From assembly GCA_964019425.1 (NCBI GenBank), contig OZ025803.1:806001-870000 (forward strand): a stretch of DNA of 64,000 nt. Direction: 5' to 3'. How positions within the stretch are numbered: position 1 is the stretch's first letter; every line of letters begins with the position of its first letter. This document shows, in pieces, positions 17,351 through 38,340 of the stretch. The notes under the pieces are model-generated. The model was not told where the DNA came from. It searched no databases and saw nothing but the letters and a program-made list of their open reading frames with translations. Made by a program: the position numbers and the translations under genes. This DNA comes from Flectonema sp. DT1601. Its lineage: Eukaryota.

Positions 17351-17657
17351 ATTTTAATAATTCAATTCAATATTGATATCTGAACGAAGATTTTTAAGTA
17401 AGAGAAAGGAAGGATTTGCATAAAGACTGACAAAGAAGGTACTAAGAGTGCGAAGCCCGTTGCCAATTAAAGAGATACATGATAAAATAAATTTGTGTCG
17501 GATGCTAATCATTTAATTTCTGTGTTCCTTGTCGGATTTTTACCTGCAGTTTACACTCAGAAGAGGTCTCTTTGGATACAGCAGTCCGAGCTGGAGTTGA
17601 CCAAGAGTAAAACTTTTCATTCTTTATTAATCACGTCAATAAGTAAATAATTTTTTC

Positions 17658-19800: not shown

Positions 19801-20175
19801 ATTAAAAATTTCCCAGAAAAAATAAAGTGGGGGGGGATCGGGAGTGATGCGAATAAATAAAAACTTTTTTTATTTATTTATTTATTTATTTAGTCACATC
19901 CCCCCTGTCTTTCTACTTTGTTTTTATTCTTTCTGAGCATACTCGCTCTTCTTATTTTTTAACTAAGTAAATAAGCAACAACGAGTGCAACTGTTGTGAG
20001 TCCGTTGGAGGACTTCCCCGGATAGGAAGCTCACGACACTGTAAGTACAAAGCGAATGATCAATACGGAGACGGTGGCCAAAGACCACTGGGTTACCTGC
20101 GAGCTATGAAGCTCTACGGATGTCCTCAGAGAGTTATTAGGAGATGAATTAGGAGTGATGTATGAGTATGATATA

Positions 20176-23100
20176 CTAAAAAGATAGTAACTTCTGATAA
20201 CAGCTTGTTGCCGTCCATTGTTCTAAATGCCATATGAAGCCAGCGAGGGAATGTAAGTTCCTCGTAGCGAACATAAATAGCAGGCTGTGTTCCTTCTTTG
20301 AAATCTTCGCTTCTTCCATGACAGATCCAATTGTTCCATTTCTGATGCGTACCAGAGCAGAGTTCATGCAGTTAAACATCAAGTGTCTAGGTGATGAGTC
20401 CGTCCGTTTACAAAAAGGGCACTTCAGTTGTACGCCTTTGTCTCTCAGCAAGGGGTGTGAACCCGTTCTGAATTGTGCAATTCTTACTTCCGAAGCCCTC
20501 AGCATGTCTTTCGGATATCTAGCAGTTCTCAATCCTCCGGTCGCCTCCAGATACTGTCTGAGCATCACCCGTTTCATTGGAGGCTTTGCCTTCTCGGAGG
20601 CTTCCATCATCTTTCCTATCAACTTCCTGTGAGACTCCCTCGCTACCCTTGATTTGTGGGCGAAGAAATCCATGGTCGTTGAGACCGGTTTACTTTCGGC
20701 ATCCTTCGAGACTTCTTTGGCCAGCTTATCAGCCTTATCGTGTGGTTCAATCCCCACATGGGCCGGGATAAACTGGAGATGCACCTGTGTCTTCAGATCC
20801 CTAATGCTTTCCAGTATTAACAGAGAGTTCAACTTCCTCTGGGCAACAATCCCTCCATTGAGTTCCTCCAGGTTGGATTTCGAGTCACTGAAGATTCTGG
20901 TAATACCTGACCTGGGACCCAAGATCGAGTCAGCTTTGCCAATTTCTCTCATCAGCAGTTTGAGTGTTACTTGTTCAGCCTTGTAGCTGCTTTCAGTAGC
21001 TACAAGTCTTGACGACATCGTTCTCTCAGTTGGTGAGACCTGTACTGCTGCCGCACCCGCAGTGTAGTTAGCAGGATCATGTGAGCCGTCCACATATATA
21101 GCCGAGTTGCAAGGGACTAGGTCCCTGCAGTATTCCTCAAATTTGTTCCTATCCACATCTGCATCACCGGTCTTGTTATGACCATACCCACAGGATATCT
21201 CTAGATTTGGTACATCCGCCCAAGGTTCGATGCTGTCAGGTTGAACTATTCCTTGGAGGGCGATGTTACAATCTTCCTGCGGCAACTTAGAACTCCAGAA
21301 TCCTTTCGCTATTCGGTTCGTCGAACGTACCCACCTCAGCGATCGATACCTAAACAGAGCAGTTCTGGCCTGTTTTTCTATTATCAACTTCATCGGGAGC
21401 ATGTTCGCCTCCAAGAGCAGTGGGAGAGACCTGGTGTAGATGCTGCAACCCGTTATCCTTCTCGCAATCTTCTTCAGATTCAAGTCCACAAGATCAATCT
21501 GACCCTCAGATAGGAAAGGACCGAAGCTCTCCAGCCCATATGACAGCCTTGAAAGTATGTACAGGTTCTTGACCATGCACAGCGTCTTAAAATCAAAATC
21601 ATACTGTTCTAGTTTCCCCAGGAGTGCAAGACCCTTCCTGGTCTCATCCAGCATCTTTCCGACCTGTGTTCCATAAGATAAATCACCATCAATGTGCACC
21701 CCCAGGTATTTAACGCTGTCTACCATCGGCATCAGTACTGCGGTTAACAACTTTACTCTCAGCTTACTTGATCCATCAGGGAAAATTGCAAGCAGGTCCT
21801 TCGTATTAGCAACTTCGGTATCATCCACCTTGAGAATGGTTTCTCCACTACCCAGAATTGGCCTTCCAAACTCGTTCGGTCTGATCATCTTAGCCAGATC
21901 TCCCCTGCTTACAACGTAATAATTATCCTTTGCAGTCCTGGGGAAGCCCAGTCTCCAGTAGATATCCTTTGGGCAGCGCACAGGCATACCACATGTCTTA
22001 GAGACGGACAGTGCCATGTCATTGGTTTTGCACCAGCTATCCACAAGTCCAAGGATCCATTGCGCTTTCTTATTGGTTAAATTAACGTCCTTATCAGAGA
22101 CTACACAAGCGGTGTCATCTGCATAAAGAGCCGAAACTGAGCCAGTCTTTTCCAACAACTTCGCCAGGTCATCAACATAAATCAGGTATAGCAGCGGACC
22201 GATAATCGAACCTTGGGGAACCCCCCTCGTTACCGTTCTGTAGGAGCTAAGGTTGCCATTCGCACTCACCCTTGCCTGCCTGCCCTTCAGGAAGTCAACT
22301 ACCCATGCAATGAACGGGGAGGGAATACTCATGTTCTTCATCTTCTTGATCAGTTTCTCATGATTAATTCTATCAAATGCTTCCGTGAAGTCGAACGACA
22401 GCAGAACAGAGCTCTTGTTCTTTTCACTGGCCTCATGAAGAGCGTTGACTAACATTGAAATCTGCTCACACGTATTCCTTCCTCTTCTAAAACCCGCCTG
22501 GATAGACGACAGGGCATTGTTCTGGGTAAGCCAATACATCAACCTATCATAAATCACTCTTTCAAGTACTTTACCCACCACCGAGGTCAACGTGATCGGT
22601 CTGAAACTTGCGATCTTATCTTTTGGCTTACCTGGTTTGTAAACTGGCTTGATAAGACCCTCCTTCCAGATCCTCGGTACCTTTGACGTTAGCCACGATT
22701 CATTGAATAACGCCAGGAGGAAATCCATTCCTATCACCGATAAGTTCTTCAACATTATCCCATGGATTCCATCTGGACCTGGTGCTTTCCCGGGCCTTAC
22801 CTTCTTGATGGCTCGCTTCAGTTCAGTCATTGTTAGATTCCCTCCGATTTTGGCGAAGTCGCTGCTCTTCGTATTCGGAGGTCCTAGTTTACGTTTTGTC
22901 GGGGTCTTGACAAATTGTTCCAAGAACTTCGCAGGTAGTTGGTTCTCGTCAAACTCCGGAATGTGAATTTCACGTCCTTCATCCGTCTCAAGGTCCTTTA
23001 TCTTTTTGAACGCATATGCAAAGCCTTCACCTTTTGCTAGCCGTTCAGCGATAAATTTTCCCTTCGCACGCTTGGTATCTGGGGTGGAAGCGTTCCACAT

Positions 23101-24063
23101 TCTTCTTCTCTTCCCTTTGATCCGAAGCCTTCTCCTAACGTACCTCTTCGCTACTCCAAGAACGATTCTGTTGAACGTTACTGCTCTTCTCCCAACGCTC
23201 GCAGAGTTGTTTACCTTTCCAAACCTGTAGTCTAGTTCATGTTCATATGAGTACCAATCAGCTGTATTGAAGTCCCAGACCGATCTCTTCGTCGCGTGGT
23301 TGCCCGAAGGCTCAAGGGGTGAGAGCGTATCGAAGGTAGCAGAGAGTGGTGTATGATCCGAACCGTGCTCAATTCCTTCACCTACCAGCTCAAAGTTAAG
23401 CAGTTGAATCTCCTCGTGGTGCAGGATCAGATCGGGCGAGGTCCCATGTCTCGGCAGTGTCGCTAGACCTGGCGGGTTCGCAATCAGGAGGTCCTCTTGC
23501 CCTGTCCAGTTGAGAAGGTCACAGCCTTTTACGTCGGTTTTCTTGGACCAGTACCTATGGTGTGCGTTGAAGTCACCAGCGAGAATGAACTTGCCAACAC
23601 GTTTAAGGGAGAATAGTTCAAAATTAATCCTCGAGCTCGGTGGGGAGTAGATGTTGAGAATACTTACGTCTTCGTTAATTCTGACACCCATCGACTCGAC
23701 GGTTCCTCTCATCGACGGTATGGAGATATCAAAGCAATCATGTTGAATTCCTCGTTTTATTAAAGTGATCAGGCCACCTCCCCTTCCTGGCCTATCCCTC
23801 CTGTAGCAAACGTAGTTCCAATGAAACAATGCCATCCTGCAAGAAGTCTCCTGAAGGCAAAGTACGTCGGGGTCAAGCTTACTCAGGATGTGTCCAATGA
23901 ACTCCATTTTGTTCGAGATGGTGCGACAATTCCAACTGATTACATTTAGTTTGCAAGAGGGACCATCCTTTCTCCTATTCGGCCCTGGGTTTCGTTCAAC
24001 GTCCCCTGCTATCAGCAAGAGACGTCTTCGAGTCTCAGCCCAGTTCCTTCCATCTACGTGCCG
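20176..24063 (-). CDS. ORF2 of family-A copy 1: 2A-like peptide, APE endonuclease, reverse transcriptase, RNase H, C-terminal Cys/His motif
   Basis: ISWN, LQET, NIYSPP, AGDFNAH, SDH; PGPDG, FRPITL, QAGF, PQGS, YADD, YLG; YVDGS, FSDS, PAHVG; CPFC...HLMFNC. The frame is open from the ORF1 stop at 24064-24066. Confidence 0.95.
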   Translation of the reverse strand, partial: RHVDGRNWAETRRRLLLIAGDVERNPGPNRRKDGPSCKLNVISWNCRTISNKMEFIGHILSKLDPDVLCLQETSCRMALFHWNYVCYRRDRPGRGGGLITLIKRGIQHDCFDISIPSMRGTVESMGVRINEDVSILNIYSPPSSRINFELFSLKRVGKFILAGDFNAHHRYWSKKTDVKGCDLLNWTGQEDLLIANPPGLATLPRHGTSPDLILHHEEIQLLNFELVGEGIEHGSDHTPLSATFDTLSPLEPSGNHATKRSVWDFNTADWYSYEHELDYRFGKVNNSASVGRRAVTFNRIVLGVAKRYVRRRLRIKGKRRRMWNASTPDTKRAKGKFIAERLAKGEGFAYAFKKIKDLETDEGREIHIPEFDENQLPAKFLEQFVKTPTKRKLGPPNTKSSDFAKIGGNLTMTELKRAIKKVRPGKAPGPDGIHGIMLKNLSVIGMDFLLALFNESWLTSKVPRIWKEGLIKPVYKPGKPKDKIASFRPITLTSVVGKVLERVIYDRLMYWLTQNNALSSIQAGFRRGRNTCEQISMLVNALHEASEKNKSSVLLSFDFTEAFDRINHEKLIKKMKNMSIPSPFIAWVVDFLKGRQARVSANGNLSSYRTVTRGVPQGSIIGPLLYLIYVDDLAKLLEKTGSVSALYADDTACVVSDKDVNLTNKKAQWILGLVDSWCKTNDMALSVSKTCGMPVRCPKDIYWRLGFPRTAKDNYYVVSRGDLAKMIRPNEFGRPILGSGETILKVDDTEVANTKDLLAIFPDGSSKLRVKLLTAVLMPMVDSVKYLGVHIDGDLSYGTQVGKMLDETRKGLALLGKLEQYDFDFKTLCMVKNLYILSRLSYGLESFGPFLSEGQIDLVDLNLKKIARRITGCSIYTRSLPLLLEANMLPMKLIIEKQARTALFRYRSLRWVRSTNRIAKGFWSSKLPQEDCNIALQGIVQPDSIEPWADVPNLEISCGYGHNKTGDADVDRNKFEEYCRDLVPCNSAIYVDGSHDPANYTAGAAAVQVSPTERTMSSRLVATESSYKAEQVTLKLLMREIGKADSILGPRSGITRIFSDSKSNLEELNGGIVAQRKLNSLLILESIRDLKTQVHLQFIPAHVGIEPHDKADKLAKEVSKDAESKPVSTTMDFFAHKSRVARESHRKLIGKMMEASEKAKPPMKRVMLRQYLEATGGLRTARYPKDMLRASEVRIAQFRTGSHPLLRDKGVQLKCPFCKRTDSSPRHLMFNCMNSALVRIRNGTIGSVMEEAKISKKEHSLLFMFATRNLHSLAGFIWHLEQWTATSCYQKLLSF

Positions 24064-25034
24064 TCATTTACCTTCCAAGAATCTCGTCATCAGCATCTCT
24101 AAACGATCCATCCTTCGTTCCATCGTATCCTGTTCAGCTGTCGACTTCTTCACAGTTTTCTTTGTCACAACCTGCTCTACAGGACCTACTTCCTTCAAGG
24201 CTCCTTTCCTCTCCTCAATCTTCACACCCGCTTCCCGCCAGAGTCTCTTCCCCTTCCCCTTACCATGAAAGGATAAGAATTCTGCTCGCAAGTAGCAACG
24301 ATTAGAGGCCTCCCCCTCTGTTGGATCACGTCTCTTCTCCGGCGGAGTAAGGCCTTTTTCCGGTGTGCTCTCCGCAGTTGACGTTGGCTGAGTTTTCTCC
24401 TTCACATCCACCTCTCTGGCAGCTTGGCGCTTCTTACGATCTTGTCTTTGAACTACCTCAACCGTACATGCCCTACCGTCGATTAATACCGTGTCGTCAT
24501 CCGGCACTTCAGCACGCACCCTCATCCATCTGTATCCAGTCCTTACTCCATCCACGGTTGCTCTCACATGCCACCCATCCTTCGCCAGCAGCGCTACCGC
24601 TTCACGGGGAAGTACATCTAACGGAATTCCCGAGATTTCTAATTCAGGGAGCTTTGCAGGGATTCCCAGTTTTTCCCTGGTTACATCTTCCAGCTCCGGT
24701 GAAACTCTGATACCAAAACCTTTAGGGTTTTCGACTAATCCCAACGATTCCAAGGAATCAGAGTGTTCAACTGCCTCCTTCAAAGAGCACTCGTCCTGAA
24801 GCCAAATAACTGTATCCTTCGGAGCCTCCCCTTCGTCTTGGATCCACAAGAACCTCCCATCTTTGCCGGAAGTTCTTAGCAGTTCCACCGCCCCGGATTT
24901 CCTCAGTCGGATGACAGCCGACACCGTACTCTTCGTTACCCTGAAGTTGTACGCTTCCATGAAGCCGGGTGTGTCCTTCATTTCTTTTGTGATGAGGTGC
25001 TCAGGCTTGCTCGCTAACTCAAGCCACTTATCAT
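24064..25034 (-). pseudogene. C-terminal portion of ORF1, family-A copy 1 (truncated and interrupted)
   Basis: Near-identical to the last ~320 aa of ORF1 at 35048-38212. The track N-terminus MVHSKKKKN comes from the poly-A tail of element B. Confidence 0.9.
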
Positions 25035-28000
25035 TTTTTTTTTTTTTTGAGTGCACCACGACCCGTGAGTCTGTGATGCTGTTTGCGCTGTTAGGCGCGG
25101 CTGTTCTTTTTCTTTCTTTCTTTCTTACTTTCTTTGTTTTGGGGGTTGGGGGTGGGAATCCCGTAGGCTTCGTATCTCCTTTCTTTGTTTTGATAACTTA
25201 AAACTAATACTACATAATTAATTGTCCACTTGGACGACTTCAGATGTGTTGCAATGATGCCTTCAATGTTGATATTCGAAATGTCGATGTTTTAATAATA
25301 CTACCGTCCTAATAGTTGTGCCAGTCTGTCTAAGGTTGTGACAAAACCAGTCATCTGCTGTTGATTCGCAGGTAAGTAGCAGTCCTCCAGTTGGCATGCT
25401 TCCTCTCCCTTGTCATTCATCATGTGACTGATGTATTTTTCTCTCAAGGTTTCTATACACCAATGTTCGCATATAAATAATACATGATGTGCTGTCGCCT
25501 TTCCAAGTTTACAGAAAAAGCACAGCTCGTTCAGTCCTTTGATTATCAGAGATCTGCAATGTCCCACTCTAAAGCGTGACATCAGTACTTCCTCTGGTCG
25601 TGTTAGAGCTTCGATGTACGGAGGGTGTCTTACCTCTCCCGGTCCGATCCAGTTCTCCCGTTTTCTCCGCTTGTGAAACGTCATCAATGTTCCCATGTCA
25701 AGTTGAGTGGGCAGTTGTTTAATAATAACATCTTCGTGAGGTGGATCTTCCTTCAGGCCTGCAGCGAATTTCGCCAGTTGGTCCGCTACTTCGTTGTACC
25801 GCACGTTTCTGTGTGCCGGTACATACTGCATGTTGACTTGGATTCCCTTCTTCTCCAGTTTCATTGCCAACTTCCAGATCTTTTTGTTCATTGGGGACCT
25901 TTGTTTATATGGCCCTTGTTCCAATGCCTGCATGACTGACATCGAATCAGTCAACAGGTGCGTCGTTGTTGTTAGAGATTCATGTTCATCCTCCGCCACC
26001 TGAACTAAATTTTCCAACGCCAGTTTCACTGCAATCTGCTCGGTCCTATAAGAGGAACCCGCTACTGGTATTTTATATCCAAGTAGACGCATCTTGCTTT
26101 CGTTAACCATGACCACAGCGGCAGCCGCGTCTGTCATGTACGTGTTGGGTTTGGGTCTTATCGACCCGTCAGTGTAGACTTTCATCTCGTGGGCTGGTAG
26201 TTCAGTTTCTCGCTGTTCAGCCTCTTCCTTGTTACTTGAATATGTGAATCTCATCGCACTAGTACTTTCCCATGGAGGGAGAGTGTAGTGTTCTGGGTTC
26301 ACTTCCAGGTTGGTAATGCTCCGGTAATTGTCAAGGCCAGGGATACCAGAGACATAGTCTATCCAGACATTCCATCCCCATTTTGATTTTTGAAATAATT
26401 CTGAACTCCCTGTTCTCGTCAGCTTGCGAGTCGGTAGGAACGGACTTAATTTGAAACGTTCATAGGTTCTACACATCTTATACTGGTTGTGTTCCTTCAG
26501 TCTTGGCGTGTCGGCTTCTTTGTAAAGTCTCTGTAGTTTGGTGCTCCGCAGACATCCAGTTACCAGCCTCACTGCCCTGTTTACCAGTAATTCCAGTTGT
26601 TCGAAGCACTCTTTTGGTAGCATCCAAGCAAAGCTTTCAACACCATAAAGCACCCTTGCTAACACCACCGTCACCAGTATACTGATGAGTGTCCTCTTTC
26701 TGCAGCCTATCCTAGTGAGTCTAACCAACAAGCCTAGACCCTTGGAAGCAGCTGTCATCATCTTTTGAATTTGCGACTTAAAGGTTAACTTCTCGTCATA
26801 ATGTACACCCAGGTACCGCACGGTATTCGTCTTGTGAACTTTTCGTCCAACCGCATAGGCAAATCCGTGTAATCCGGGCCCCACTCTTTCCAGCATCTTA
26901 TCTATTTCTGCCTTGTTGTGGACTTTCTTCAGTTGTGAGAAGCTGGCGCTCATCTTCATTGTTTTCAGTACCGCCGGTTTGTTCGGTAGCTTGACTTTGA
27001 TCTTATGTTTTGGAACGACATACAGGTGAGTGATGGCGAATTCTTCTTTTGAAACTACAGTTGTTGAGTTATCATCCTTCACAAGGTTACTCATTTGTTC
27101 TGCCGTGGCCACCACATATTTAAATGTGTGTTCTTCAGAGTATACTACTACTGGGGACTTGTCATGAGTTCCACTTGGCCTCACGTGAATGTATTCCGTC
27201 TTGCCAGGGTTCTTATTGATTTTGATGTGTGAGTCAAGTGCCCACCTTTCAAATATTTTGACTGCGTTGTTAACCTTGTTTTCTAAACAGCTGACAGTGC
27301 CCGCGGTTATTACTATTCCAACATCATCTGCAAAGACAGTCGGTTCGTACATCTCTAGTTTATCTATCAAATCGTTGATGAAGATAGAGAATAACTGGGG
27401 TCCCAGCACGCTTCCTTGTGGTACTCCTACTCGAATGTTCCGGAATGCTCCCTTCACTCCATTCACCCTTGTTGAAATCTTCCTACTAGTCAAGTAGTTT
27501 TGAACCCACCGTAGATATTTCGTTGGTAGTCCTATTTTGGACATCTTATTTAGAAGAGTTACCGGTTGAACTGCATCGAAGGCTTTTTGTAGGTCGAAGG
27601 TGATTAATATCGCTTCTTCCCCCATTGCCTTGGCACTTTTGAGTTTGTCTGTAACTATACAGAGATTTTCAATGGAATCCCGTCCTCGTTTGTAGGCTGC
27701 TTGCCTCGGATTTATTCTGTCTTTCAACAGGTGGTGCATCCGTTCTACGACCATTCTTTCAAAGAGTTTCGAGACGGTCGAGGTTAGTGCTATCGGTCTG
27801 TACGATAAGACTTGTTTCTTGTCTTTATCAGGTTTCAGTATGGGTATTACCATTCCACTTTTCCAGCACCTGGGTACTGCTGATCGTTGCCATGAGAGGT
27901 TGAATAGTCTTAGTAGTTGCTCGAGGAAAGCTTTTGGAAGTTGTTTTAACATCGAGTTCCAGATGTGGTCAGGTCCAGGTGCCTTCTTCTCTTTTGTTTT

Positions 28001-29039
28001 TGAAATTTGTCGTTCCAGTTCAGGCATTCCAAATTCCACCGAGTTATCATCAGGTATTCCTTGTAAGGTTGGTTCACCGTCTTCGAATTTGAATTGGTCT
28101 GCGTATGTTTTGGTGAAGACATCTGCCATCTCCCGCGGGTCGGTTAATTCCTTCTCACCGTCGACAATCTTAGTAATTGAATGGTCCATCATTCTACCTT
28201 CCAGTTGTTTAACTTTTCTAAAGGCCCATCGGTAGTCCATTCCAGTCATGTCGCACTCAATGATCTTCTGTTTGATCATGTTGATACCTCTTTCAATTGC
28301 TTCTGAGTCTGTCTTATCAGGGTCAGTCTCTGCCATTAAATCTTCCAATTCTGAATCCCTCACAGCGAAGGTACTACTTGACTTCTTGTTGTAGCCTGGG
28401 ATGGCCCTTCTCGCTGCTCTCAGAATCTCGTTGTTGATCCTATTAGCAAGTTTCTGCACATTCTTAATTCTTTCTAATTTGGGCGCTGCCCTTTCCAACA
28501 ATATTTTATAATAATTCCAATCGGCACAATGCCACTTCCATTTCCATGTCCCAGAACTCTCTTTTGAATATTCATCTGTTTTGATATCTTCGATTGTCAG
28601 TTTGAGTGGCAGGTGATCGCTGCCCCATCCCTTCATGAGTTCGATTTGTGCATCCAAAGAAATATCTAATGCAATTACATCCGGAGAGGCTGAGCTCTGT
28701 GGTCTTGTGTGTTGTTGAGGTTTGTTTAGAATTTGAATTGCTGCTTCTAGTGACCAATCGTAGAAGCTGTTACCAGTAATGTTCGTATTTCCATTTGACC
28801 AAGTTGAATGGTGTCCATTAATGTCACCCGCAATCAATGTGCCGGGCTCTGATATAAACTTCCAGGTTGTTGCCTTGATTTCAGGCGGGTGGTAAACATT
28901 GTGAATTGTCAATGGCGGATTAGATTGAAGTACTACTGTTAATATCTCAGTTTGGTCATGTGAGATGTCGGGGTGTTTTAATATTATCTTATTTAAATCA
29001 TTTCTGACCAGAGTGACGAGTCCTCGATGACCTGACTTG
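25035..29039 (-). mobile_element. Element B: second family of Ingi-like non-LTR retrotransposon, 5'-truncated in APE, nested in family-A copy 1
   Basis: Poly-A tail (T run to 25048). ATCAT is duplicated at 25030-25034 and 29040-29044. Family-A sequence resumes exactly after the insertion. Confidence 0.93.
25301..29039 (-). CDS. APE (partial)-RT-RNase H polyprotein of element B
   Basis: NVYHPP, AGDINGH, SDH, PGPD, YRPIAL, PQGS, FADD, YLG, VYTDGS, LTDS, PAH...NEVAD, CFFC...HVLFIC. The frame is intact; the track ATG lies in the TSD. Confidence 0.92.
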
Positions 29040-30848: not shown

Positions 30849-31159
30849 AACCATCATTTATTTATTTATTTATTTAGTCACATCCCCCCTGTCTTTCTAC
30901 TTTGTTTTTATTCTTTCTGAGCATACTCGCTCTTCTTATTTTTTAACTAATTAAATAAGCAACAACGAGTGCAACTGTTGTGAGTCCGTTGGAGGACTTC
31001 CCCGGATAGGAAGCTCACGACACTGTAAGTACAAAGCGAATGATCAATACGGAGACGGTGGCCAAAGACCACTGGGTTACCTGCGAGCTATGAAGCTCTA
31101 CGGATGTCCTCAGAGAGTTATTAGGAGATGAATTAGGAGTGATGTATGAGTATGATATA

Positions 31160-34100
31160 CTAAAAAGATAGTAACTTCTGATAACAGCTTGTTGCCGTCC
31201 ATTGTTCTAAATGCCATATGAAGCCAGCGAGGGAATGTAAGTTCCTCGTAGCGAACATAAATAGCAGGCTGTGTTCCTTCTTTGAAATCTTCGCTTCTTC
31301 CATGACAGATCCAATTGTTCCATTTCTGATGCGTACCAGAGCAGAGTTCATGCAGTTAAACATCAAGTGTCTAGGTGATGAGTCCGTCCGTCTACAAAAA
31401 GGGCACTTCAGTTGTACGCCTTTGTCTCTCAGCAAGGGGTGTGAACCCGTTCTGAATTGTGCAATTCTTACTTCCGAAGCTCTCAGCATGTCTTTCGGAT
31501 ATCTAGCAGTTCTCAATCCTCCGGTCGCCTCCAGATACTGTCTGAGCATCACCCGTTTCATTGGAGGCTTTGCCTTCTCGGAGGCTTCCATCATCTTTCC
31601 TATCAACTTCCTGTGAGACTCCCTCGCTACCCTTGATTTGTGGGCGAAGAAATCCATGGTCGTTGAGACCGGTTTTCTTTCGGCATCCTTCGAGACTTCT
31701 TTGGCCAGCTTATCAGCCTTATCGTGTGGTTCAATCCCCACATGGGCCGGGATAAACTGGAGATGCACCTGTGTCTTCAGATCCCTAATGCTTTCCAGTA
31801 TTAACAGAGAGTTCAACTTCCTCTGGGCAACAATCCCTCCATTGAGTTCCTCCAGGTTGGATTTCGAGTCACTGAAGATTCTGGTAATACCTGACCTGGG
31901 ACCCAAGATCGAGTCAGCTTTGCCAATTTCTCTCATCAGCAGTTTGAGTGTTACTTGTTCAGCCTTGTAGCTGCTTTCAGTAGCTACAAGTCTTGACGAC
32001 ATCGTTCTCTCAGTTGGTGAGACCTGTACTGCTGCCGCACCCGCAGTGTAGTTAACAGGATCATGTGAGCCGTCCACATATATAGCCGAGTTGCAAGGGA
32101 CTAGGTCCCTGCAGTATTCCTCAAATTTGTTCCTGTCCACATCTGCATCACCGGTCTTGTTATGACCATACCCACAGGATATCTCTAGATTTGGTACATC
32201 CGCCCAGGGTTCGATGCTGTCAGGTTGAACTATTCCTTGGAGGGCGATGTTACAATCTTCCTGCGGCAACTTAGAACTCCAGAATCCTTTCGCTATTCGG
32301 TTCGTCGAACGTACCCACTTCAGCGATCGATACCTAAACAGAGCAGTTCTGGCCTGTTTTTCTATTATCAACTTCATCGGGAGCATGTTCGCCTCCAAGA
32401 GCAGTGGGAGAGACCTGGTGTAGATGCTGCAACCCGTTATCCTTCTCGCAATCTTCTTCAGATTCAAGTCCACAAGATCAATCTGACCCTCAGATAGGAA
32501 AGGACCGAAGCTCTCCAGCCCATATGACAGCCTTGAAAGTATGTACAGGTTCTTGACCATGCACAGCGTCTTAAAATCAAAATCATACTGTTCTAGTTTC
32601 CCCAGGAGTGCAAGACCCTTCCTGGTCTCATCCAGCATCTTTCCGACCTGTGTTCCATAAGATAAATCACCATCAATGTGCACCCCCAGGTATTTAACGC
32701 TGTCTACCATCGGCATCAGTACTGCGGTTAACAACTTTACTCTCAGCTTACTTGATCCATCAGGGAAAATTGCAAGCAGGTCCTTCGTATTAGCAACTTC
32801 GGTATCATCCACCTTGAGAATGGTTTCTCCACTCCCCAGAATTGGCCTTCCAAACTCGTTCGGTCTGATCATCTTAGCCAGATCTCCCCTGCTTACAACG
32901 TAATAATTATCCTTTGCAGTCCTGGGGAAGCCCAGTCTCCAGTAGATATCCTTTGGGCAGCGCACAGGCATACCACATGTCTTAGAGACGGACAGTGCCA
33001 TATCATTGGTTTTGCACCAGCTATCCACAAGTCCAAGGATCCATTGCGCTTTCTTATTGGTTAAATTAACGTCCTTATCAGAGACTACACAAGCGGTGTC
33101 ATCTGCATAAAGAGCCGAAACTGAGCCAGTCTTCTCCAACAACTTTGCCAGGTCATCAACATAAATCAGGTATAGCAGCGGACCGATAATCGATCCTTGG
33201 GGAACCCCCCTCGTTACCGTTCTGTAGGAGCTAAGGTTGCCATTCGCACTCACCCTTGCCTGCCTGCCCTTCAGGAAGTCAACTACCCATGCAATGAACG
33301 GGGAGGGAATACGCATGTTCTTCATCTTCTTGATCAGTTTCTCATGATTAATTCTATCAAATGCTTCCGTGAAGTCGAACGACAGCAGAACAGAGCTCTT
33401 GTTCTTTTCACTGGCCTCATGAAGAGCGTTGACTAACATTGAAATCTGCTCACACGTATTCCTTCCTCTTCTAAAACCCGCCTGGATAGACGACAGGGCA
33501 TTGTTCTGGGTAAGCCAATACATCAACCTATCATAAATCACTCTTTCAAGTACTTTACCCACCACCGAGGTCAACGTGATCGGTCTGAAACTTGCGATCT
33601 TATCTTTTGGCTTACCTGGTTTGTAAACTGGCTTGATAAGACCCTCCTTCCAGATCCTCGGTACCTTTGACGTTAGCCACGATTCATTGAATAACGCCAG
33701 GAGGAAATCCATTCCTATCACCGATAAGTTCTTCAACATTATCCCATGGATTCCATCTGGACCTGGTGCTTTCCCGGGCCTTACCTTCTTGATGGCTCGC
33801 TTCAGTTCAGTCATTGTTAGATTCCCTCCGATTTTGGCGAAGTCGCTGCTCTTCGTATTCGGAGGTCCTAGTTTACGTTTTGTCGGGGTCTTAACAAATT
33901 GTTCCAAGAACTTCGCAGGTAGTTGGTTCTCGTCAAACTCCGGAATGTGAATTTCACGTCCTTCATCCGTCTCAAGGTCCTTTATCTTTTTGAACGCATA
34001 TGCAAAGCCTTCACCTTTTGCTAGCCGTTCAGCGATAAATTTTCCCTTCGCACGCTTGGTATCTGGGGTGGAAGCGTTCCACATTCTTCTTCTCTTCCCT

Positions 34101-35047
34101 TTGATCCGAAGCCTTCTTCTAACGTACCTCTTCGCTACTCCAAGAACGATTCTGTTGAACGTTACTGCTCTTCTCCCAACGCTCGCAGAGTTGTTTACCT
34201 TTCCAAACCTGTAGTCTAGTTCATGTTCATATGAGTACCAATCAGCTGTATTGAAGTCCCAGACCGATCTCTTCGTCGCGTGGTTGCCCGAAGGCTCAAG
34301 GGGTGAGAGCGTATCGAAGGTAGCAGAGAGTGGTGTATGATCCGAACCGTGCTCAATTCCTTCACCTACCAGCTCAAAGTTAAGCAGTTGAATCTCCTCG
34401 TGGTGCAGGATCAGATCGGGCGAGGTCCCATGTCTCGGCAGTGTCGCTAGACCTGGCGGGTTCGCAATCAGGAGGTCCTCTTGCCCTGTCCAGTTGAGAA
34501 GGTCACAGCCTTTTACGTCGGTTTTCTTGGACCAGTACCTATGGTGTGCGTTGAAGTCACCAGCGAGAATGAACTTGCCAACACGTTTCAGGGAGAATAG
34601 TTCAAAATTAATCCTCGAGCTCGGTGGGGAGTAGATGTTGAGAATACTTACGTCTTCGTTAATTCTGACACCCATCGACTCGACGGTTCCTCTCATCGAC
34701 GGTATGGAGATATCAAAGCAATCATGTTGAATTCCTCGTTTTATTAAAGTGATCAGGCCACCTCCCCTTCCTGGCCTATCCCTCCTGTAGCAAACGTAGT
34801 TCCAATGAAACAATGCCATCCTGCAAGAAGTCTCCTGAAGGCAAAGTACGTCGGGGTCAAGCTTACTCAGGATGTGTCCAATGAACTCCATTTTGTTCGA
34901 GATGGTGCGACAATTCCAACTGATTACATTTAGTTTGCAAGAGGGACCATCCTTTCTCCTATTTGGCCCTGGGTTTCGTTCAACGTCCCCTGCTATCAGC
35001 AAGAGACGTCTTCGAGTCTCAGCCCAGTTCCTTCCATCTACGTGCCG
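31160..35047 (-). CDS. ORF2 of family-A copy 2: 2A-like peptide-APE-RT-RNase H
   Basis: Same motifs as copy 1, with about five amino-acid differences. No in-frame ATG before the APE ISWN motif; the track start is a TTG. Confidence 0.95.
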   Translation of the reverse strand, partial: RHVDGRNWAETRRRLLLIAGDVERNPGPNRRKDGPSCKLNVISWNCRTISNKMEFIGHILSKLDPDVLCLQETSCRMALFHWNYVCYRRDRPGRGGGLITLIKRGIQHDCFDISIPSMRGTVESMGVRINEDVSILNIYSPPSSRINFELFSLKRVGKFILAGDFNAHHRYWSKKTDVKGCDLLNWTGQEDLLIANPPGLATLPRHGTSPDLILHHEEIQLLNFELVGEGIEHGSDHTPLSATFDTLSPLEPSGNHATKRSVWDFNTADWYSYEHELDYRFGKVNNSASVGRRAVTFNRIVLGVAKRYVRRRLRIKGKRRRMWNASTPDTKRAKGKFIAERLAKGEGFAYAFKKIKDLETDEGREIHIPEFDENQLPAKFLEQFVKTPTKRKLGPPNTKSSDFAKIGGNLTMTELKRAIKKVRPGKAPGPDGIHGIMLKNLSVIGMDFLLALFNESWLTSKVPRIWKEGLIKPVYKPGKPKDKIASFRPITLTSVVGKVLERVIYDRLMYWLTQNNALSSIQAGFRRGRNTCEQISMLVNALHEASEKNKSSVLLSFDFTEAFDRINHEKLIKKMKNMRIPSPFIAWVVDFLKGRQARVSANGNLSSYRTVTRGVPQGSIIGPLLYLIYVDDLAKLLEKTGSVSALYADDTACVVSDKDVNLTNKKAQWILGLVDSWCKTNDMALSVSKTCGMPVRCPKDIYWRLGFPRTAKDNYYVVSRGDLAKMIRPNEFGRPILGSGETILKVDDTEVANTKDLLAIFPDGSSKLRVKLLTAVLMPMVDSVKYLGVHIDGDLSYGTQVGKMLDETRKGLALLGKLEQYDFDFKTLCMVKNLYILSRLSYGLESFGPFLSEGQIDLVDLNLKKIARRITGCSIYTRSLPLLLEANMLPMKLIIEKQARTALFRYRSLKWVRSTNRIAKGFWSSKLPQEDCNIALQGIVQPDSIEPWADVPNLEISCGYGHNKTGDADVDRNKFEEYCRDLVPCNSAIYVDGSHDPVNYTAGAAAVQVSPTERTMSSRLVATESSYKAEQVTLKLLMREIGKADSILGPRSGITRIFSDSKSNLEELNGGIVAQRKLNSLLILESIRDLKTQVHLQFIPAHVGIEPHDKADKLAKEVSKDAERKPVSTTMDFFAHKSRVARESHRKLIGKMMEASEKAKPPMKRVMLRQYLEATGGLRTARYPKDMLRASEVRIAQFRTGSHPLLRDKGVQLKCPFCRRTDSSPRHLMFNCMNSALVRIRNGTIGSVMEEAKISKKEHSLLFMFATRNLHSLAGFIWHLEQWTATSCYQKLLSF
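34964..35047 (-). other. 2A-like StopGo (ribosome skipping) peptide RHVDGRNWAETRRRLLLIAGDVERNPG/P (also 23980-24063)
   Basis: Matches the D(V/I)ExNPGP consensus with the typical upstream RRLLL-x-x-G segment. Confidence 0.92.
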
Positions 35048-38000
35048 TCATTTACCTTCCAAGAATCTCGTCATCAGCATCTCTAAACGATCCATCCTTC
35101 GTTCCATCGTATCCTGTTCAGCTGTCGACTTCTTCACAGTTTTCTTTGTCACAACCTGCTCTACAGGACCTACTTCCTTCAAGGCTCCTTTCCTCTCCTC
35201 AATCTTCACACCCGCTTCCCGCCAGAGTCTCTTCCCCTTCCCCTTACCATGAAAGGATAAGAATTCTGCTCGCAAGTAGCAACGATTAGAGGCCTCCCCC
35301 TCTGTTGGATCACGTCTCTTCTCCGGCGGAGTAAGGCCTTTTTCCGGTGTGCTCTCCGCAGTTGACGTTGGCTGAGTTTTCTCCTTCACATCCACCTCTC
35401 TGGCAGCTTGGCGCTTCTTACGATTTTGTCTTTGAACTACCTCAACCGTACATGCCCTACCGTCGATTAATACCGTGTCGTCATCCGGCACTTCAGCACG
35501 CACCCTCATCCATCTGTATCCAGTCCTTACTCCATCCACGGTTGCTCTCACATGCCACCCATCCTTCGCCAGCAGCGCTACCGCTTCACGGGGAAGTACA
35601 TCTAACGGAATTCCCGAGATTTCTAATTCAGGGAGCTTTGCAGGGATCCCCAGTTTTTCCCTGGTTACATCTTCCAGCTCCGGTGAAACTCTGATACCAA
35701 AACCTTTAGGGTTTTCGACTAATCCCAACGATTCCAAGGAATCAGAGTGTTCAACTGCCTCCTTCAAAGAGCACTCGTCCTGAAGCCAAATAACTGTATC
35801 CTTCGGAGCCTCCCCTTCGTCTTGGATCCACAAGAACCTCCCATCTTTGCCGGAAGTTCTTAGCAGTTCCACCGCCCCGGATTTCCTCAGTCGGATGACA
35901 GCCGACACCGTACTCTTCGTTACCCCGAAGTTGTACGCTTCCATGAAGCCGGGTGTGTCCTTCATTTCTTTTGTGATGAGGTGCTCAGGCTTACTCGCTA
36001 ACTCAAGCCACTTATCATCCTTCCACCTTCTTTTAGGAGCGGTCACTATTGCCTTCACCGATTTAATACCCCGCTTACCCTTTGGTAGAGCAGCCTCACC
36101 CAGGTCATGAATGAAGATGCGATGTACCTTGTTTCCATCCTTGCTCGATAATAGCACGTGTTCCCTTCTTCCTTGTCCATTCACTTGGTCCAGCGTTACC
36201 ACGCTGCACGTTTTCCATGCAGGAACCTCCGGCTTCATCCCCAGAAGATCTCTTGCCTCCGAAGGCGTCGCAAGGGCTACTCCTTGATTCCCTTTCGATA
36301 CCTCCTCAAACTTCGTGACCGGAATGTTCCAATCAGCTTCCCTCAGGCTCCAGGAGTTCAACACTTCCCTCTCCTTCTTGTTGGTTTTCTCCCAGAGACG
36401 TCTGGCTTTTTCAACAGCTTTCATCGACTGCGTCGCTTTCTTTTCCAGTGATTCCCACTCGGATGTGCAGTTCCTCTGTACAGCTGATCTAACCTTTGAC
36501 TCATCAGTGGTGAGGCCGTAGGAGCGAGAGTAGGTCAGACCGTTCACTAAGTTGGCAATTCCCAGTGGTGGTTGGCTCGGGGCTACTACGACCTCATTCA
36601 CTTCTTCGCTTCTCTGCGCTCTCGATGAGGCCAACTCCTGTCTCAGTTCTTTTAGCTGAGTCTGGAGTTCCATGAGCAACTTCCTCAGCTCACCCTTCTC
36701 TTCTCTCTCTTTCTGGAGCTCCAGTCGGAGTTGTTCAATTCCCTGTTGTTGCGGAAGTACCGGCGGGTACGGTTGCCTTTGATGCATCGGTGCATAAGGC
36801 TGGTGCTGCATGTAGTAGACCGGAGGTTGGCTTACTGCATGCGTTTGCTGACGGAGGCTGCTTTGTTGGAGTTGGAGCTTCTGTTGCTGTTGTCGCAGTT
36901 TTCCTTCTTGAAGTTCCAGATCTAGCTTTGACTTCTGGTCTTCTTGTTGCTGTTGTTCGAACTCCTTTCCAAGCTCCCGTTGAAGTTGGAGCAGTTCCTT
37001 CCTCCCTTGTTCCTTCTCCTTTTCTTGTTGTTGTTGGAGTTGATGGCTACGCAGCTTCTGTTGTTCGAACTCCATGTCTAGCTTGTTCCTGAGACACTGG
37101 AGTTCCTTCCTACCCTTCTCCATCTCGTCCTCCTGCTGGCGTTGTAGTTGGAGTCGTTGATGCTCAAGGTCATCTTCCTGCTTTTTGATTTCTTCCCGTC
37201 TCTGTTGTTGTTGCTGCTGGTCCAGTTTGCCCTTTTCCAACTCCACATTCAGTTGATGTTGAAGCAGCTGCTGTTTTTCCTCCAGGCTAACCTGTTGCAG
37301 TTGCAGATTCTGTTGAATCCTGGACTGTTCTTGTTGTTGTTGGCGTTGGTCTTCTTCGAGTTGGCATCTTCTTCTTCGGAGAGATTCATCCTCGACAGCC
37401 TTCTCCTTGCTGTGCTGCTGTTCGAGCTGCTGTTGTTGGATCAGTATTTGTTCCTGCTTCTGTTGTAGGTCTGCTTTATATTGTAGCAGTTCTTGTTGTT
37501 GTTGGTTTAACAACTCTTGGCTATGTTGTTGGTTTTGATGTTGTTGTTGGACTTGATGCTCAAGTTGTTGTTGCTGTTGTATATGCTTATCCTGCTGTTG
37601 TTGGACTTGTTGATCAAGTTGCTGTTGCTGCTGCTGTTGGATTTCCTGCTGCTTTTTGACTTGATGGCTAAGTTGCTGTTCTTGCTGTTGTTGCTTCAGA
37701 CAGAGTTCATCTTCGTACTGAGTAAGAGCCTTCTGTTGTTGATGCAGATGTTCCTGGTTTTGTTGCTGTTGATGGTCCAGTTGTTTCTGGTTGACAAGTT
37801 GTTGCTGTTGATGGTTAGTCAGTACTTCCTCAAGCTGTTGTTGCTTTTGGAATAATTCTTCCTGTTTCTTCTGGAAGTTAACTTCTAGCTCACTCTGTTG
37901 TTTGCAGAGGAGCTCTTGTTGTTGCAGCAGTTCGTTCTTCTCTTCTTCCTGCTCTGCCTGTTTTTTCTTGAGGACCTTCTCGTCCTTCTTCCTGTCTTCG

Positions 38001-38212
38001 TCCCGATCCAGCCTTCTTAGGCCATCCCGTGCGAGTCTCTCCCTCAACTCGTCTCGTTCCTTCGTGTCTACGCTCGTCTTCCTGTCTTTCTTACCGTTCC
38101 CGTTCTCTGTGTGTGCTTTCCGGTTCCTTTCCTTCCGTGAGAGTATTTCACCTCCCATCTGGTTGCAAAATTTAGTCGGTCTCTGCCGTCCGAGACCGCC
38201 GCGTGGAGGCAT
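35048..38212 (-). CDS. ORF1 of family-A element: basic N-terminus, long Gln/Glu-rich coiled coil, globular C-terminal region
   Basis: Uninterrupted 1054-aa ORF between the 5' ribozyme fold and ORF2. No CCHC knuckle seen. Confidence 0.85.
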   Translation of the reverse strand: MPPRGGLGRQRPTKFCNQMGGEILSRKERNRKAHTENGNGKKDRKTSVDTKERDELRERLARDGLRRLDRDEDRKKDEKVLKKKQAEQEEEKNELLQQQELLCKQQSELEVNFQKKQEELFQKQQQLEEVLTNHQQQQLVNQKQLDHQQQQNQEHLHQQQKALTQYEDELCLKQQQQEQQLSHQVKKQQEIQQQQQQQLDQQVQQQQDKHIQQQQQLEHQVQQQHQNQQHSQELLNQQQQELLQYKADLQQKQEQILIQQQQLEQQHSKEKAVEDESLRRRRCQLEEDQRQQQQEQSRIQQNLQLQQVSLEEKQQLLQHQLNVELEKGKLDQQQQQQRREEIKKQEDDLEHQRLQLQRQQEDEMEKGRKELQCLRNKLDMEFEQQKLRSHQLQQQQEKEKEQGRKELLQLQRELGKEFEQQQQEDQKSKLDLELQEGKLRQQQQKLQLQQSSLRQQTHAVSQPPVYYMQHQPYAPMHQRQPYPPVLPQQQGIEQLRLELQKEREEKGELRKLLMELQTQLKELRQELASSRAQRSEEVNEVVVAPSQPPLGIANLVNGLTYSRSYGLTTDESKVRSAVQRNCTSEWESLEKKATQSMKAVEKARRLWEKTNKKEREVLNSWSLREADWNIPVTKFEEVSKGNQGVALATPSEARDLLGMKPEVPAWKTCSVVTLDQVNGQGRREHVLLSSKDGNKVHRIFIHDLGEAALPKGKRGIKSVKAIVTAPKRRWKDDKWLELASKPEHLITKEMKDTPGFMEAYNFGVTKSTVSAVIRLRKSGAVELLRTSGKDGRFLWIQDEGEAPKDTVIWLQDECSLKEAVEHSDSLESLGLVENPKGFGIRVSPELEDVTREKLGIPAKLPELEISGIPLDVLPREAVALLAKDGWHVRATVDGVRTGYRWMRVRAEVPDDDTVLIDGRACTVEVVQRQNRKKRQAAREVDVKEKTQPTSTAESTPEKGLTPPEKRRDPTEGEASNRCYLRAEFLSFHGKGKGKRLWREAGVKIEERKGALKEVGPVEQVVTKKTVKKSTAEQDTMERRMDRLEMLMTRFLEGK

Positions 38213-38225
38213 TTTGTGTGGTCCC
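38165..38225 (-). ncRNA. HDV-like self-cleaving ribozyme at the 5' end of the retroelement
   Basis: GGGACC-ACA-CAAAAU-GCC-UCCACGC-GGC-GGUCUC-GG-A-CGG-CAGAGA-CCG-A-CUAA-AUUUUG. P1 GGGACC/GGUCUC, P2 CAAAAU/AUUUUG, P3 GCC/GGC, L3 UCCACGC, P1.1 CC/GG, P4 CGG/CCG, J4/2 C-UAA carrying the catalytic C. Confidence 0.88.
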
Positions 38226-38268
38226 TAAAATAAAAAACCATCAATCTTTTTTTTTTTTTATCTTCAGA

Positions 38269-38340
38269 TCCGCTGTAGTATAGTGGTTAGAACACCTGGC
38301 CCTCACCCAGGAAACCGGGGTTCAATTCCCCGCAGCGGAA
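38269..38340 (+). tRNA. tRNA-Glu (anticodon CTC)
   Basis: Acceptor stem TCCGCTG/CAGCGGA, D loop AGTGGTTA, anticodon stem CCTGG/CCAGG with loop CC-CTC-AC, T arm CGGGG-TTCAATT-CCCCG. Confidence 0.93.

What the first reader, a model, noticed from the sequence alone, without database searches (positions are those of the whole stretch)
34964..35050. Double recoding: UGA-CGG readthrough followed by a 2A StopGo peptide appears to express retrotransposon ORF2
Seen: ORF1 ends GGT AAA TGA and the same frame continues CGG CAC GTA ... for 27 sense codons to DVERNPG/P, then directly into the APE domain. ORF2 has no ATG before the ISWN motif; its first Met lies inside APE. Copy 1 has the identical arrangement (23980-24066). 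Established: UGA-CGG/UGA-CUA is the leaky context of alphavirus/tobravirus-type readthrough, and 2A-like peptides occur near the N-terminus of L1Tc/Ingi-type ORFs. Inference: ribosomes read through the UGA at low frequency and 2A then releases a free APE-RT-RNase H protein starting at Pro. This would set the ORF1:ORF2 ratio without a protease or reinitiation. I do not know this combination from a described non-LTR element.
Basis: partly seen in the sequence, partly recalled or inferred. Interest (0 to 1): 0.95.

Follow-up and report, generated by a model that had tools for sequence, protein, structure and literature searches.

The report
Leaky-stop, 2A-split diplonemid retrotransposon
A jumping gene in a single-celled marine eukaryote (likely a diplonemid) has its copying-enzyme gene directly behind the first gene's stop codon, in the same frame and with no start codon in front of its first domain; it likely makes the enzyme when a few ribosomes read through the stop and a predicted virus-like 2A peptide then frees it, which would be a route I did not find described for this class of element.

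Summary
A LINE-type retrotransposon, likely of a diplonemid, has a 1054-aa ORF1 ending AAA-UGA-CGG. Twenty-seven in-frame codons follow, then a canonical 2A motif and APE-RT-RNase H. The first AUG is codon 53, inside APE. The stop is not a private mutation: 11 of 11 listed family ORF1 proteins that reach the C-terminus end there, and no fusion was found. A decayed sister-family copy, read out of frame, shows the peptide from codon +4 to NPGP under purifying selection (second positions 25/25 alike, third positions 8/25). It most likely also has an in-frame UGA followed by a pyrimidine. So ribosomes enter ORF2 within three codons of the stop, without an AUG. Readthrough followed by 2A release is the best reading (0.55). 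AUG-independent in-frame reinitiation, as proposed for human L1, remains a serious rival (0.28). A 3' hairpin exists but lies further away than in viruses and is weaker in the sister family. The element also carries a predicted 5' HDV-like ribozyme, so it resembles Ingi/L1Tc with an added ORF1. Nothing was measured experimentally.

The parts
38166..38225 (-). Predicted HDV-like ribozyme at the element's 5' end (P1 6 bp, P2 6 bp, P3 3 bp, 7-nt L3, GG for P1.1, CUAA before P2); the ORF1 AUG lies inside it
   Evidence: Rfam CPEB3_ribozyme match 19.4 bits, E 0.57 in 20.9 kb and 0.006 in 219 nt, below the gathering score of 35; all 15 stem pairs checked are standard; cleavage untested
35048..38212 (-). 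ORF1, 1054 aa: Gln/Glu-rich N-terminal half (likely coiled coil), two predicted RRM-like domains (about 36067-35813 and 35641-35435), C-terminal RMDRLE helix
   Evidence: No Pfam family; model pLDDT 88; best matches are RRM domains, Z 8.5 (rmsd 2.4, 73 aligned) and Z 7.8 (rmsd 2.2, 62 aligned), near the level common folds reach; Foldseek best E 1.3e-3
35048..35050 (-). UGA stop of ORF1 in context AAA-UGA-CGG, in frame with ORF2
   Evidence: fixed in 11 of 11 listed family ORF1 proteins that reach the end
34964..35047 (-). 27 sense codons plus Pro: linker and 2A-like peptide LLLIAGDVERNPG/P
   Evidence: purifying selection against a sister family over codons +4 to +28
34982..35010 (-). Predicted 13-bp hairpin inside the 2A codons (+41 to +69, counting the U of UGA as 1), extended by a lower stem from +20
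   Evidence: z -3.75, 0 of 200 shuffles; 10 of 1000 synonymous recodings fold as well; sister family weaker
34889..34891 (-). First in-frame AUG of ORF2 (codon 53), behind the SWN motif of APE
   Evidence: APE profile match starts at codon 42
31160..34966 (-). ORF2 from the post-2A Pro: APE, RT, RNase H, C-terminal CCHC-type motif
   Evidence: Pfam PF03372/PF14529 and PF00078 above cut-off; RNase_H E 0.0015, 19.2 bits, below the cut-off of 25.8; nearest solved relative human L1 ORF2p, E 1e-33; CCHC read by eye
30857..31159 (-). 3' UTR ending in (TAAA)n
38236..38243 (-). 5' copy of the 8-bp target-site duplication TGATGGTT (3' copy at 30856-30849)
19872..25034 (-). Copy 1, 5'-truncated, with the same junction at 24066-23980; its first 57 bp lie at 29091-29035, split off by a nested LINE
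   Evidence: ORF2 intact, 12 synonymous and 5 non-synonymous differences from copy 2
25035..29035 (-). A different, 5'-truncated APE-RT-RNase H LINE nested in copy 1 (ATGAT duplicated); ends approximate
38269..38340 (+). tRNA-Glu(CTC) gene, head to head with the element's 5' end

Best explanation
This LINE has ORF1 and an AUG-less ORF2 in one frame separated by a single UGA; a few ribosomes likely read through that UGA, translate the 27 linker codons and reach a 2A peptide that is predicted to release a free APE-RT-RNase H protein starting at Pro. Most ribosomes would stop at the UGA and give abundant ORF1 protein, so the stop would set the ORF1:ORF2 ratio and 2A would remove the unwanted fusion. 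Shown: the anatomy, the fixed stop, the missing AUG, and selection on the linker peptide. Inferred: the sister family's in-frame UGA, readthrough, 2A activity, any role of the hairpin, and ribozyme cleavage of the 5' end.
For: (1) Context AAA-UGA-CGG matches the type II motif UGA-CGG/CUA, with stimulatory A at -1/-2 (PMC3159437 passages); 0 of 13 host ORF ends examined have UGA plus pyrimidine. (2) Stop fixed: of 23 ORF1 cluster members, 15 were listed; 11 reach the end and all 11 stop at FLEGK (2 from this window, 9 on 8 other contigs); 4 break earlier. No close relative among 11 hits of 2268-5000 aa. (3) Four related ORF1 clusters end 16-20 residues after the same helix: 7 of 10, 2 of 2, 3 of 3 and 1 of 1 members; the other 3 break earlier. 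(4) P0227, a decayed copy 186/237 identical to P0226, runs on through the junction in the +1 frame: 24 of 25 codons fit DGRNWAETRRRLLL(I/L)AGDVERNPGP (shuffles: mean 5.4, maximum 13 of 10000), second positions 25/25 alike, third positions 8/25. Ribosomes must therefore be in the ORF2 frame by codon +4. (5) No AUG or near-cognate codon lies in codons +1 to +5. (6) P0227's residues LVASD are exactly the +1 reading of P0226's end VGSK-stop if the stop is UGA followed by a pyrimidine, in frame, one codon before D: the frame would have survived a 6-nt length change. (7) A third family's stop also reads xAA-UGA-pyrimidine (P0231). (8) Hairpin 3' of the stop. (9) Under this model 2A has an evident job.
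Against: No expression data; the one run found is of unknown kind. Point 6 needs a 4-nt deletion in P0227; the alternative, a lost stop with ORF2 in the -1 frame, needs about four substitutions in four codons and is less likely but open. P0231 shows no 2A in about 66 codons after its UGA in any frame. The hairpin's lower stem starts 16 nt and the main hairpin 37 nt after the stop, against 7-9 nt in alphaviruses and tobraviruses; codon +3 is GUA, not xxG. In the sister family the same 75 nt fold at -15 to -20 against -32.5 kcal/mol. One other 100-nt window of the element, inside ORF1, folds as well (z -3.56; 74 coarse windows). The nearest outgroup in the RT tree, Flectonema P0004, has a Met 31 codons before the Pro, so an AUG-started form exists close by. 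[quoted passage not shown]
Confidence: 0.55

Rival explanations
1. Termination followed by AUG-independent reinitiation within 1-3 codons of the UGA. The ribosome makes a 25-27-residue leader, and 2A trims it so that APE always starts at Pro whatever codon was used.
For: L1 ORF2 is thought to start independently of its AUG (PMC5009743 passage). Calicivirus reinitiation tolerates non-cognate start codons next to the stop, and SART1 needs a structure downstream of the stop (PMC5972666 passages). LINE 2As usually sit 40-80 aa behind an N-terminus (PMC3708506). Flectonema P0004 starts MDG 31 codons before the Pro. It fits the selection from codon +4 equally well.
Against: It does not by itself predict a UGA-pyrimidine stop in three families or a frame kept through a 6-nt change (both inferred). 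The AUG that overlaps the stop (A-AUG-A) opens a 10-codon -1 frame, not ORF2. No near-cognate codon in +1 to +5.
Confidence: 0.28
2. ORF2 comes from a separate RNA or an internal start (junction promoter, spliced-leader trans-splicing, IRES-like entry) with a non-AUG start.
For: Spliced-leader trans-splicing is general in diplonemids (PMC10161547 passages); Tca2 has a minor promoter in its junction (PMC2194720, abstract).
Against: All 24 AG sites from -165 to +12 have at most 10 pyrimidines in the 25 nt before them. A start at the first AUG would lose the SWN strand of APE. A non-AUG start before codon +4 would still be needed.
Confidence: 0.09
3. The UGA is a nonsense mutation in a once single ORF1-2A-ORF2 frame, and the copies are spread by enzymes of another element.
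For: The copies are 97-100% alike and could stem from one master.
Against: Every related ORF1 cluster ends at the homologous place, including Flectonema's. No fusion was found. ORF2 is intact in both window copies, with 12 synonymous and 5 non-synonymous changes.
Confidence: 0.03
4. Cis-splicing removes the UGA: donor AAG/GUAAAU at 35055 with in-frame acceptors 18, 63 or 66 nt away.
For: The donor and the in-frame AGs exist; the 63- and 66-nt acceptors follow a short pyrimidine run.
Against: The 63/66-nt introns would remove codons that are under peptide-level selection, and both AGs are changed in the sister family; 18 nt is very short for a spliceosomal intron (own knowledge).
Confidence: 0.02
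5. The UGA is decoded as selenocysteine, or hopped over in frame.
For: UGA with a 3' hairpin resembles selenoprotein sites; in-frame stop hopping is discussed as possible (PMC5009743 passage).
Against: No SECIS family among 8 Rfam matches at E up to 5 in 17500-38400; that review knows no natural case of in-frame stop hopping.
Confidence: 0.03

Closest known systems
L1Tc/Ingi-clade LINEs of trypanosomes and Ingi-1_AC (PMC3708506 passages; PMC3894237 parts 1-2 of 3; PMC4035085 passages)
   Same: HDV-like ribozyme fold at the 5' end, 2A motif immediately before APE, APE-RT (RNase H in Ingi is recalled), euglenozoan host.
   Different: Those papers say Ingi-clade elements lack ORF1 and that 2A correlates with loss of ORF1. 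Here a 1054-aa ORF1 and an in-frame UGA lie between the ribozyme and 2A, and no AUG precedes 2A.
CR1-26_BF, CR1-53_BF, CR1-1_LG (LINEs with both ORF1 and a 2A; PMC3708506, PMC3894237)
   Same: ORF1 plus 2A at the start of ORF2.
   Different: CR1 clade of animals; in the passages read no in-frame stop or readthrough is proposed, and they are taken as intermediates in ORF1 loss.
Type II readthrough sites of alphaviruses, tobraviruses, furoviruses (PMC3159437 passages)
   Same: xxA-UGA-CGG context, a 3' stem-loop, structural protein or major product upstream and polymerase downstream.
   Different: Stem 16-37 nt from the stop instead of 7-9; codon +3 not xxG; the product would be split by 2A rather than by a protease.
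Tca2 (Candida LTR element, gag-UGA-pol; PMC2194720 abstract) and MuLV gag-UAG-pol (PMC3159437, PMC5009743 passages)
   Same: Two retroelement ORFs in one frame separated by one stop.
   Different: LTR elements that need a Gag-Pol fusion and a protease; Tca2's junction alone gave no readthrough in S. cerevisiae.
SART1 and human L1 termination-reinitiation (via PMC5972666 and PMC5009743 passages; originals not held)
   Same: Bicistronic LINE RNA, ORF2 begins next to the ORF1 stop, structure downstream in SART1.
   Different: SART1 has an overlapping UAAUG that opens ORF2; L1 has a 63-nt spacer and an AUG; neither is described with 2A in what I read.
Cardiovirus StopGo followed by -1 frameshift (PMC5009743 passages)
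   Same: Two recoding events within a few dozen codons that tune structural versus enzyme output.
   Different: Opposite order and a frameshift instead of a stop.

Membership tests
APE-type non-LTR retrotransposon (LINE) | APE and RT domains in one ORF | tested here: met
   Pfam PF14529, PF03372, PF00078 above cut-off
APE-type non-LTR retrotransposon (LINE) | Target-site duplication, simple-repeat 3' tail, 5'-truncated copies | tested here: met
   8-bp TGATGGTT, (TAAA)n tail, copy 1 truncated
APE-type non-LTR retrotransposon (LINE) | ORF1 with RNA-binding fold | tested here: inconclusive
   Two RRM-like domains predicted, best Z 8.5 and 7.8, near the level of common folds; no Pfam hit
Ingi/L1Tc clade | HDV-like ribozyme at the 5' end | tested here: met
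   All P1, P2, P3 pairs form; weak Rfam CPEB3 match; fold only, activity untested
Ingi/L1Tc clade | 2A motif immediately before APE | tested here: met
   GDVERNPGP at codons 20-28, SWN at 43-45
Ingi/L1Tc clade | Single ORF, no ORF1 | tested here: not met
   1054-aa ORF1 inside the target-site duplication; criterion from PMC3708506
Ingi/L1Tc clade | RT groups with named Ingi/L1Tc references | not testable with these tools
   No named Ingi or L1Tc sequence came back from any call; the tree places it in a 26-row group (SH-aLRT 94) rich in RNase H- and 2A-bearing unnamed elements
Class A 2A / StopGo peptide | GD(V/I)ExNPG/P motif with a Leu-rich upstream tract | tested here: met
   LLLIAGDVERNPGP; consensus from PMC3708506; conserved in sister families
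Class A 2A / StopGo peptide | Measured peptide-bond skipping | not testable with these tools
   Motif alone does not guarantee activity (PMC3708506 passages)
Type II stop-codon readthrough site | UGA-CGG or UGA-CUA, A at -1 | tested here: met
   AAA-UGA-CGG; sister family UGA plus pyrimidine, not CGG, inferred
Type II stop-codon readthrough site | Conserved 3' stem starting 7-9 nt after the stop | tested here: inconclusive
   Confident stems start 16 and 37 nt after the stop; a 5-bp stem 9 nt after it appears in the 150-nt fold only; weaker in the sister family
Type II stop-codon readthrough site | C-terminally extended upstream protein detected | not testable with these tools
   No RNA reads, ribosome profiles or peptides
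SART1-type stop-start coupling | Overlapping AUG that opens ORF2 | tested here: not met
   The AUG overlapping the UGA opens a 10-codon -1 frame
Selenocysteine UGA | SECIS element in the 3' UTR | tested here: inconclusive
   None among Rfam matches; a divergent euglenozoan SECIS could be missed

The most novel reading that the evidence does not exclude
A lineage of diplonemid LINEs expresses ORF2 by programmed UGA readthrough followed 25-27 codons later by 2A StopGo, conserved across families whose ORF1s are only about 40% alike. With the 5' self-cleaving ribozyme, one RNA would use three RNA-virus-like devices. It would be a LINE that uses readthrough, and it suggests what LINE 2As are for: giving the endonuclease a fixed N-terminus whenever ribosomes arrive by a non-canonical route.
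Probability: 0.5. Interest if true: 0.85.

Novelty: new variant of a known kind. Interest (0 to 1): 0.72.

Why it matters
How LINE ORF2 is translated, and why many LINEs carry a 2A peptide, are both stated as open in the papers read (PMC3894237, PMC3708506). This element narrows the entry into ORF2 to three non-AUG codons after an in-frame stop, so a 90-nt cassette can decide between readthrough and AUG-independent reinitiation. Either result is informative: readthrough would add a mechanism for LINEs, and reinitiation would give a minimal natural case of the L1-type puzzle. It also runs against the published correlation that 2A replaces ORF1. Four full-text searches listed no paper whose title or abstract start describes readthrough plus 2A in a non-LTR element; the library lacks most subscription journals and Repbase reports, so this is limited evidence of absence.

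Tried and rejected
No whole genome is held, so copies were studied through predicted proteins, not DNA. No RNA holder was listed; only low-depth contigs of run X1 could be laid, and their gaps prove nothing. The metagenome scan gave 71 distant loci; 3 NPGP-like strings, none a 2A before APE. The viral-contig scan for relatives gave 1 unrelated locus. The word-based ORF1 search found only its own cluster; the HMMER search found the sister ORF1s. The ESM Atlas gave no usable hit for ORF1 and generic RT clusters for ORF2. N-terminal Met of the ENA proteins was rejected as proof of AUG, because P0204 starts at a window GTG. A reassigned UGA code was rejected. A long-range 8-9-nt-spacer stem was considered: 5-6 bp, below 0.5 probability in the 280-nt fold. 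Alisch 2006 and Kojima 2005 are not held and are cited through reviews. The D. papillatum supplements gave no description of such elements for six terms (7 files searched). Supplements of the bioRxiv 2A survey (581 predicted 2As in reverse-transcribing elements) could not be seen and may hold similar junctions. Earlier scan notes had nothing on this junction.
Full report
Observation. On the minus strand ORF1 (38212-35048, 1054 aa) ends GGT AAA TGA. The same frame goes on for 27 sense codons to NPG/P and stays open for 1295 codons to a TAG at 31160. ORF2 carries APE and RT above the Pfam cut-offs and RNase H below it. Its first AUG is codon 53, after the SWN motif; near-cognate codons occur at +6 (AGG) and +16 to +18, none at +1 to +5. 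Copy 1 has the same junction and differs at 22 of 5163 bases, with 12 synonymous and 5 non-synonymous changes in ORF2. A contig of run X1 bridges the UGA unchanged; it may be the source sample. UGA is a normal stop here.

The element and its host. The nearest named relatives of ORF2 are Flectonema neradi proteins, 40-49% identical, so the host is likely a diplonemid; I did not determine the species. Copy 2 is full length: an 8-bp target-site duplication, a (TAAA)n tail, and at the 5' end a 60-nt stretch in which all 15 pairs of an HDV-like P1, P2 and P3 form, with a weak Rfam CPEB3 ribozyme match. A predicted model of the C-terminal part of ORF1 (pLDDT 88) resembles two RRM domains at modest Z. 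Ribozyme, 2A before APE and APE-RT are the marks of L1Tc/Ingi elements (PMC4035085 passages; PMC3708506 passages), but those lack ORF1. In a quick RT tree of 133 rows (1 of 134 dropped for a short match) the element groups with two unnamed sister families (SH-aLRT 99), then Flectonema P0004 (94), within a 12-row clade (98). No named Ingi reference was available, so membership is untested.

Is the stop real and old? The ORF1 cluster has 23 members; 15 were listed, 11 reach the C-terminus, and all 11 end at FLEGK, 9 of them outside this window. Of 15 listed ORF2 members (42 in all), 8 start at Met53, 1 at Met77 and 6 are internal fragments; none carries ORF1 sequence. A search of 2268-5000-aa proteins gave 11 distant hits and no fusion of this family, which is weak evidence by itself. 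The HMMER search found sister ORF1s, 32-43% identical, which end 16-20 residues after the same helix in 7 of 10, 2 of 2, 3 of 3 and 1 of 1 members. A shared nonsense mutation is therefore unlikely.

Where do ribosomes enter ORF2? No sister DNA was available, but one stored protein, P0227, is a decayed copy whose ORF1 runs on out of frame through the junction; it was the only one of the stored proteins compatible with a 2A motif in another frame. Read back, 24 of 25 codons fit DGRNWAETRRRLLL(I/L)AGDVERNPGP, against a shuffle mean of 5.4 and a maximum of 13. Second codon positions agree 25 of 25, third positions 8 of 25; in the next 12 codons only 8 fit. This is purifying selection on the peptide from codon +4, so translation is in the ORF2 frame within three codons of the stop, none of them AUG-like. 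It argues against a start at the CUG/UUG codons inside 2A and against the 63- and 66-nt introns, whose AGs are also changed in the sister family.

Is the sister stop in frame? P0227 is 186/237 identical to P0226, whose ORF1 ends VGSK-stop. P0227's LVASD is the +1 reading of that end if the stop is UGA followed by a pyrimidine, one codon before D. That needs one 4-nt deletion in a copy that already shows two other gaps and a locally shifted stretch against P0226. The alternative is a lost stop with ORF2 in the -1 frame, which needs about four substitutions in four codons. I judge the first clearly more likely, but it is inference from one copy. A third family (P0231) also reads xAA-UGA-pyrimidine, but shows no 2A in the next 66 or so codons, which counts against generality. 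None of 13 host ORF ends examined has UGA plus pyrimidine; one other LINE ORF in the window does end UGA-U.

RNA structure. A 13-bp hairpin lies at +41 to +69 inside the 2A codons, with a lower stem from +20: z -3.75, 0 of 200 shuffles, and 10 of 1000 synonymous recodings fold as well. One of 74 coarse windows elsewhere in the element reaches a similar z. Viral readthrough stems start 7-9 nt after the stop (PMC3159437 passages), and the inferred sister sequences fold more weakly, -15 to -20 against -32.5 kcal/mol. The hairpin is compatible with readthrough and with SART1-type reinitiation (PMC5972666 passages) and decides nothing.

Mechanism. Best reading (0.55): low-level readthrough of AAA-UGA-CGG, a type II context, then StopGo at NPG/P, giving abundant ORF1p, a little ORF1p extended by 28 residues, and free ORF2p. 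Main rival (0.28): termination and AUG-independent restart at the next codons, with 2A trimming the leader; L1 ORF2 is thought to start independently of its AUG (PMC5009743 passage), and Flectonema P0004 has a Met before its 2A-like motif. Two other Flectonema proteins labelled complete start inside APE (P0008, P0194), which would fit an AUG-less junction there, depending on how the caller chose starts. Tca2 is the caution: an in-frame UGA with a 3' structure gave no readthrough in a yeast reporter (PMC2194720, abstract). A separate RNA (0.09), a nonsense mutation (0.03), selenocysteine or hopping (0.03) and cis-splicing (0.02) fit worse.

Novelty. 2A before APE is known in six LINE clades and was linked to loss of ORF1, with three CR1 exceptions (PMC3708506; PMC3894237, parts 1-2 of 3 read). 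In-frame stops are known from LTR elements and viruses. Searches listed no non-LTR case of readthrough plus 2A; I saw listings, and passages of PMC12338488, PMC10275272, PMC5009743, PMC10161547 and bioRxiv 2026.09.24.754024 (supplements closed). Among 139 viral 2A matches none had a stop without an AUG within 60 codons upstream. Verdict: a real and old arrangement, a new variant of the Ingi-like design, with an unproven but sharply testable mechanism. Interest 0.72.

Noticed in passing
window 38236-38340, and protein P0209: The full-length copy sits head to head with tRNA-Glu, its target-site duplication 25 nt upstream of the gene. Another copy's predicted N-terminal extension (P0209) fits a reverse-read tRNA A box followed by an A run (91 of 2000 shuffles). 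This suggests targeting upstream of tRNA genes, like Dictyostelium TRE5-A (about 50 bp upstream; PMC3159450, abstract start).
   Followed up: partly
window 17638-38243: Five LINE insertions are stacked in one orientation between the tRNA gene and a HAD-family hydrolase gene: copy 2, an RNase H-bearing fragment (about 30848-29130), copy 1 with a nested LINE, and a decayed relative farthest from the tRNA.
   Followed up: partly
proteins P0223, P0274, P0275: A sister family's ORF1 is fused in frame behind cysteine-protease N-termini in three stored proteins, with no Met of its own at the join; possible sequence-specific insertion into protease genes.
   Followed up: no
window 38225-38166: The ORF1 start codon and first codons (MPPRGGLG) lie inside the ribozyme fold and are kept in sister protein P0226; how an RNA cut by a ribozyme starts ORF1 13 nt from its end is unexplained.
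   Followed up: partly
window 17638-17925 against 30861-31126: The 3' UTR is 85-87% alike between this family and the decayed relative while coding parts are 70-77% alike, suggesting a conserved 3' signal.
   Followed up: no
window 2224-3155: A partial match to eukaryotic LSU rRNA (95 bits) between protein-coding genes, with a 57-bp inverted repeat at 2448-2504 and 3367-3423.
   Followed up: no
window 56726-56838: A perfect (GTTGC) array of 22.6 copies.
   Followed up: no
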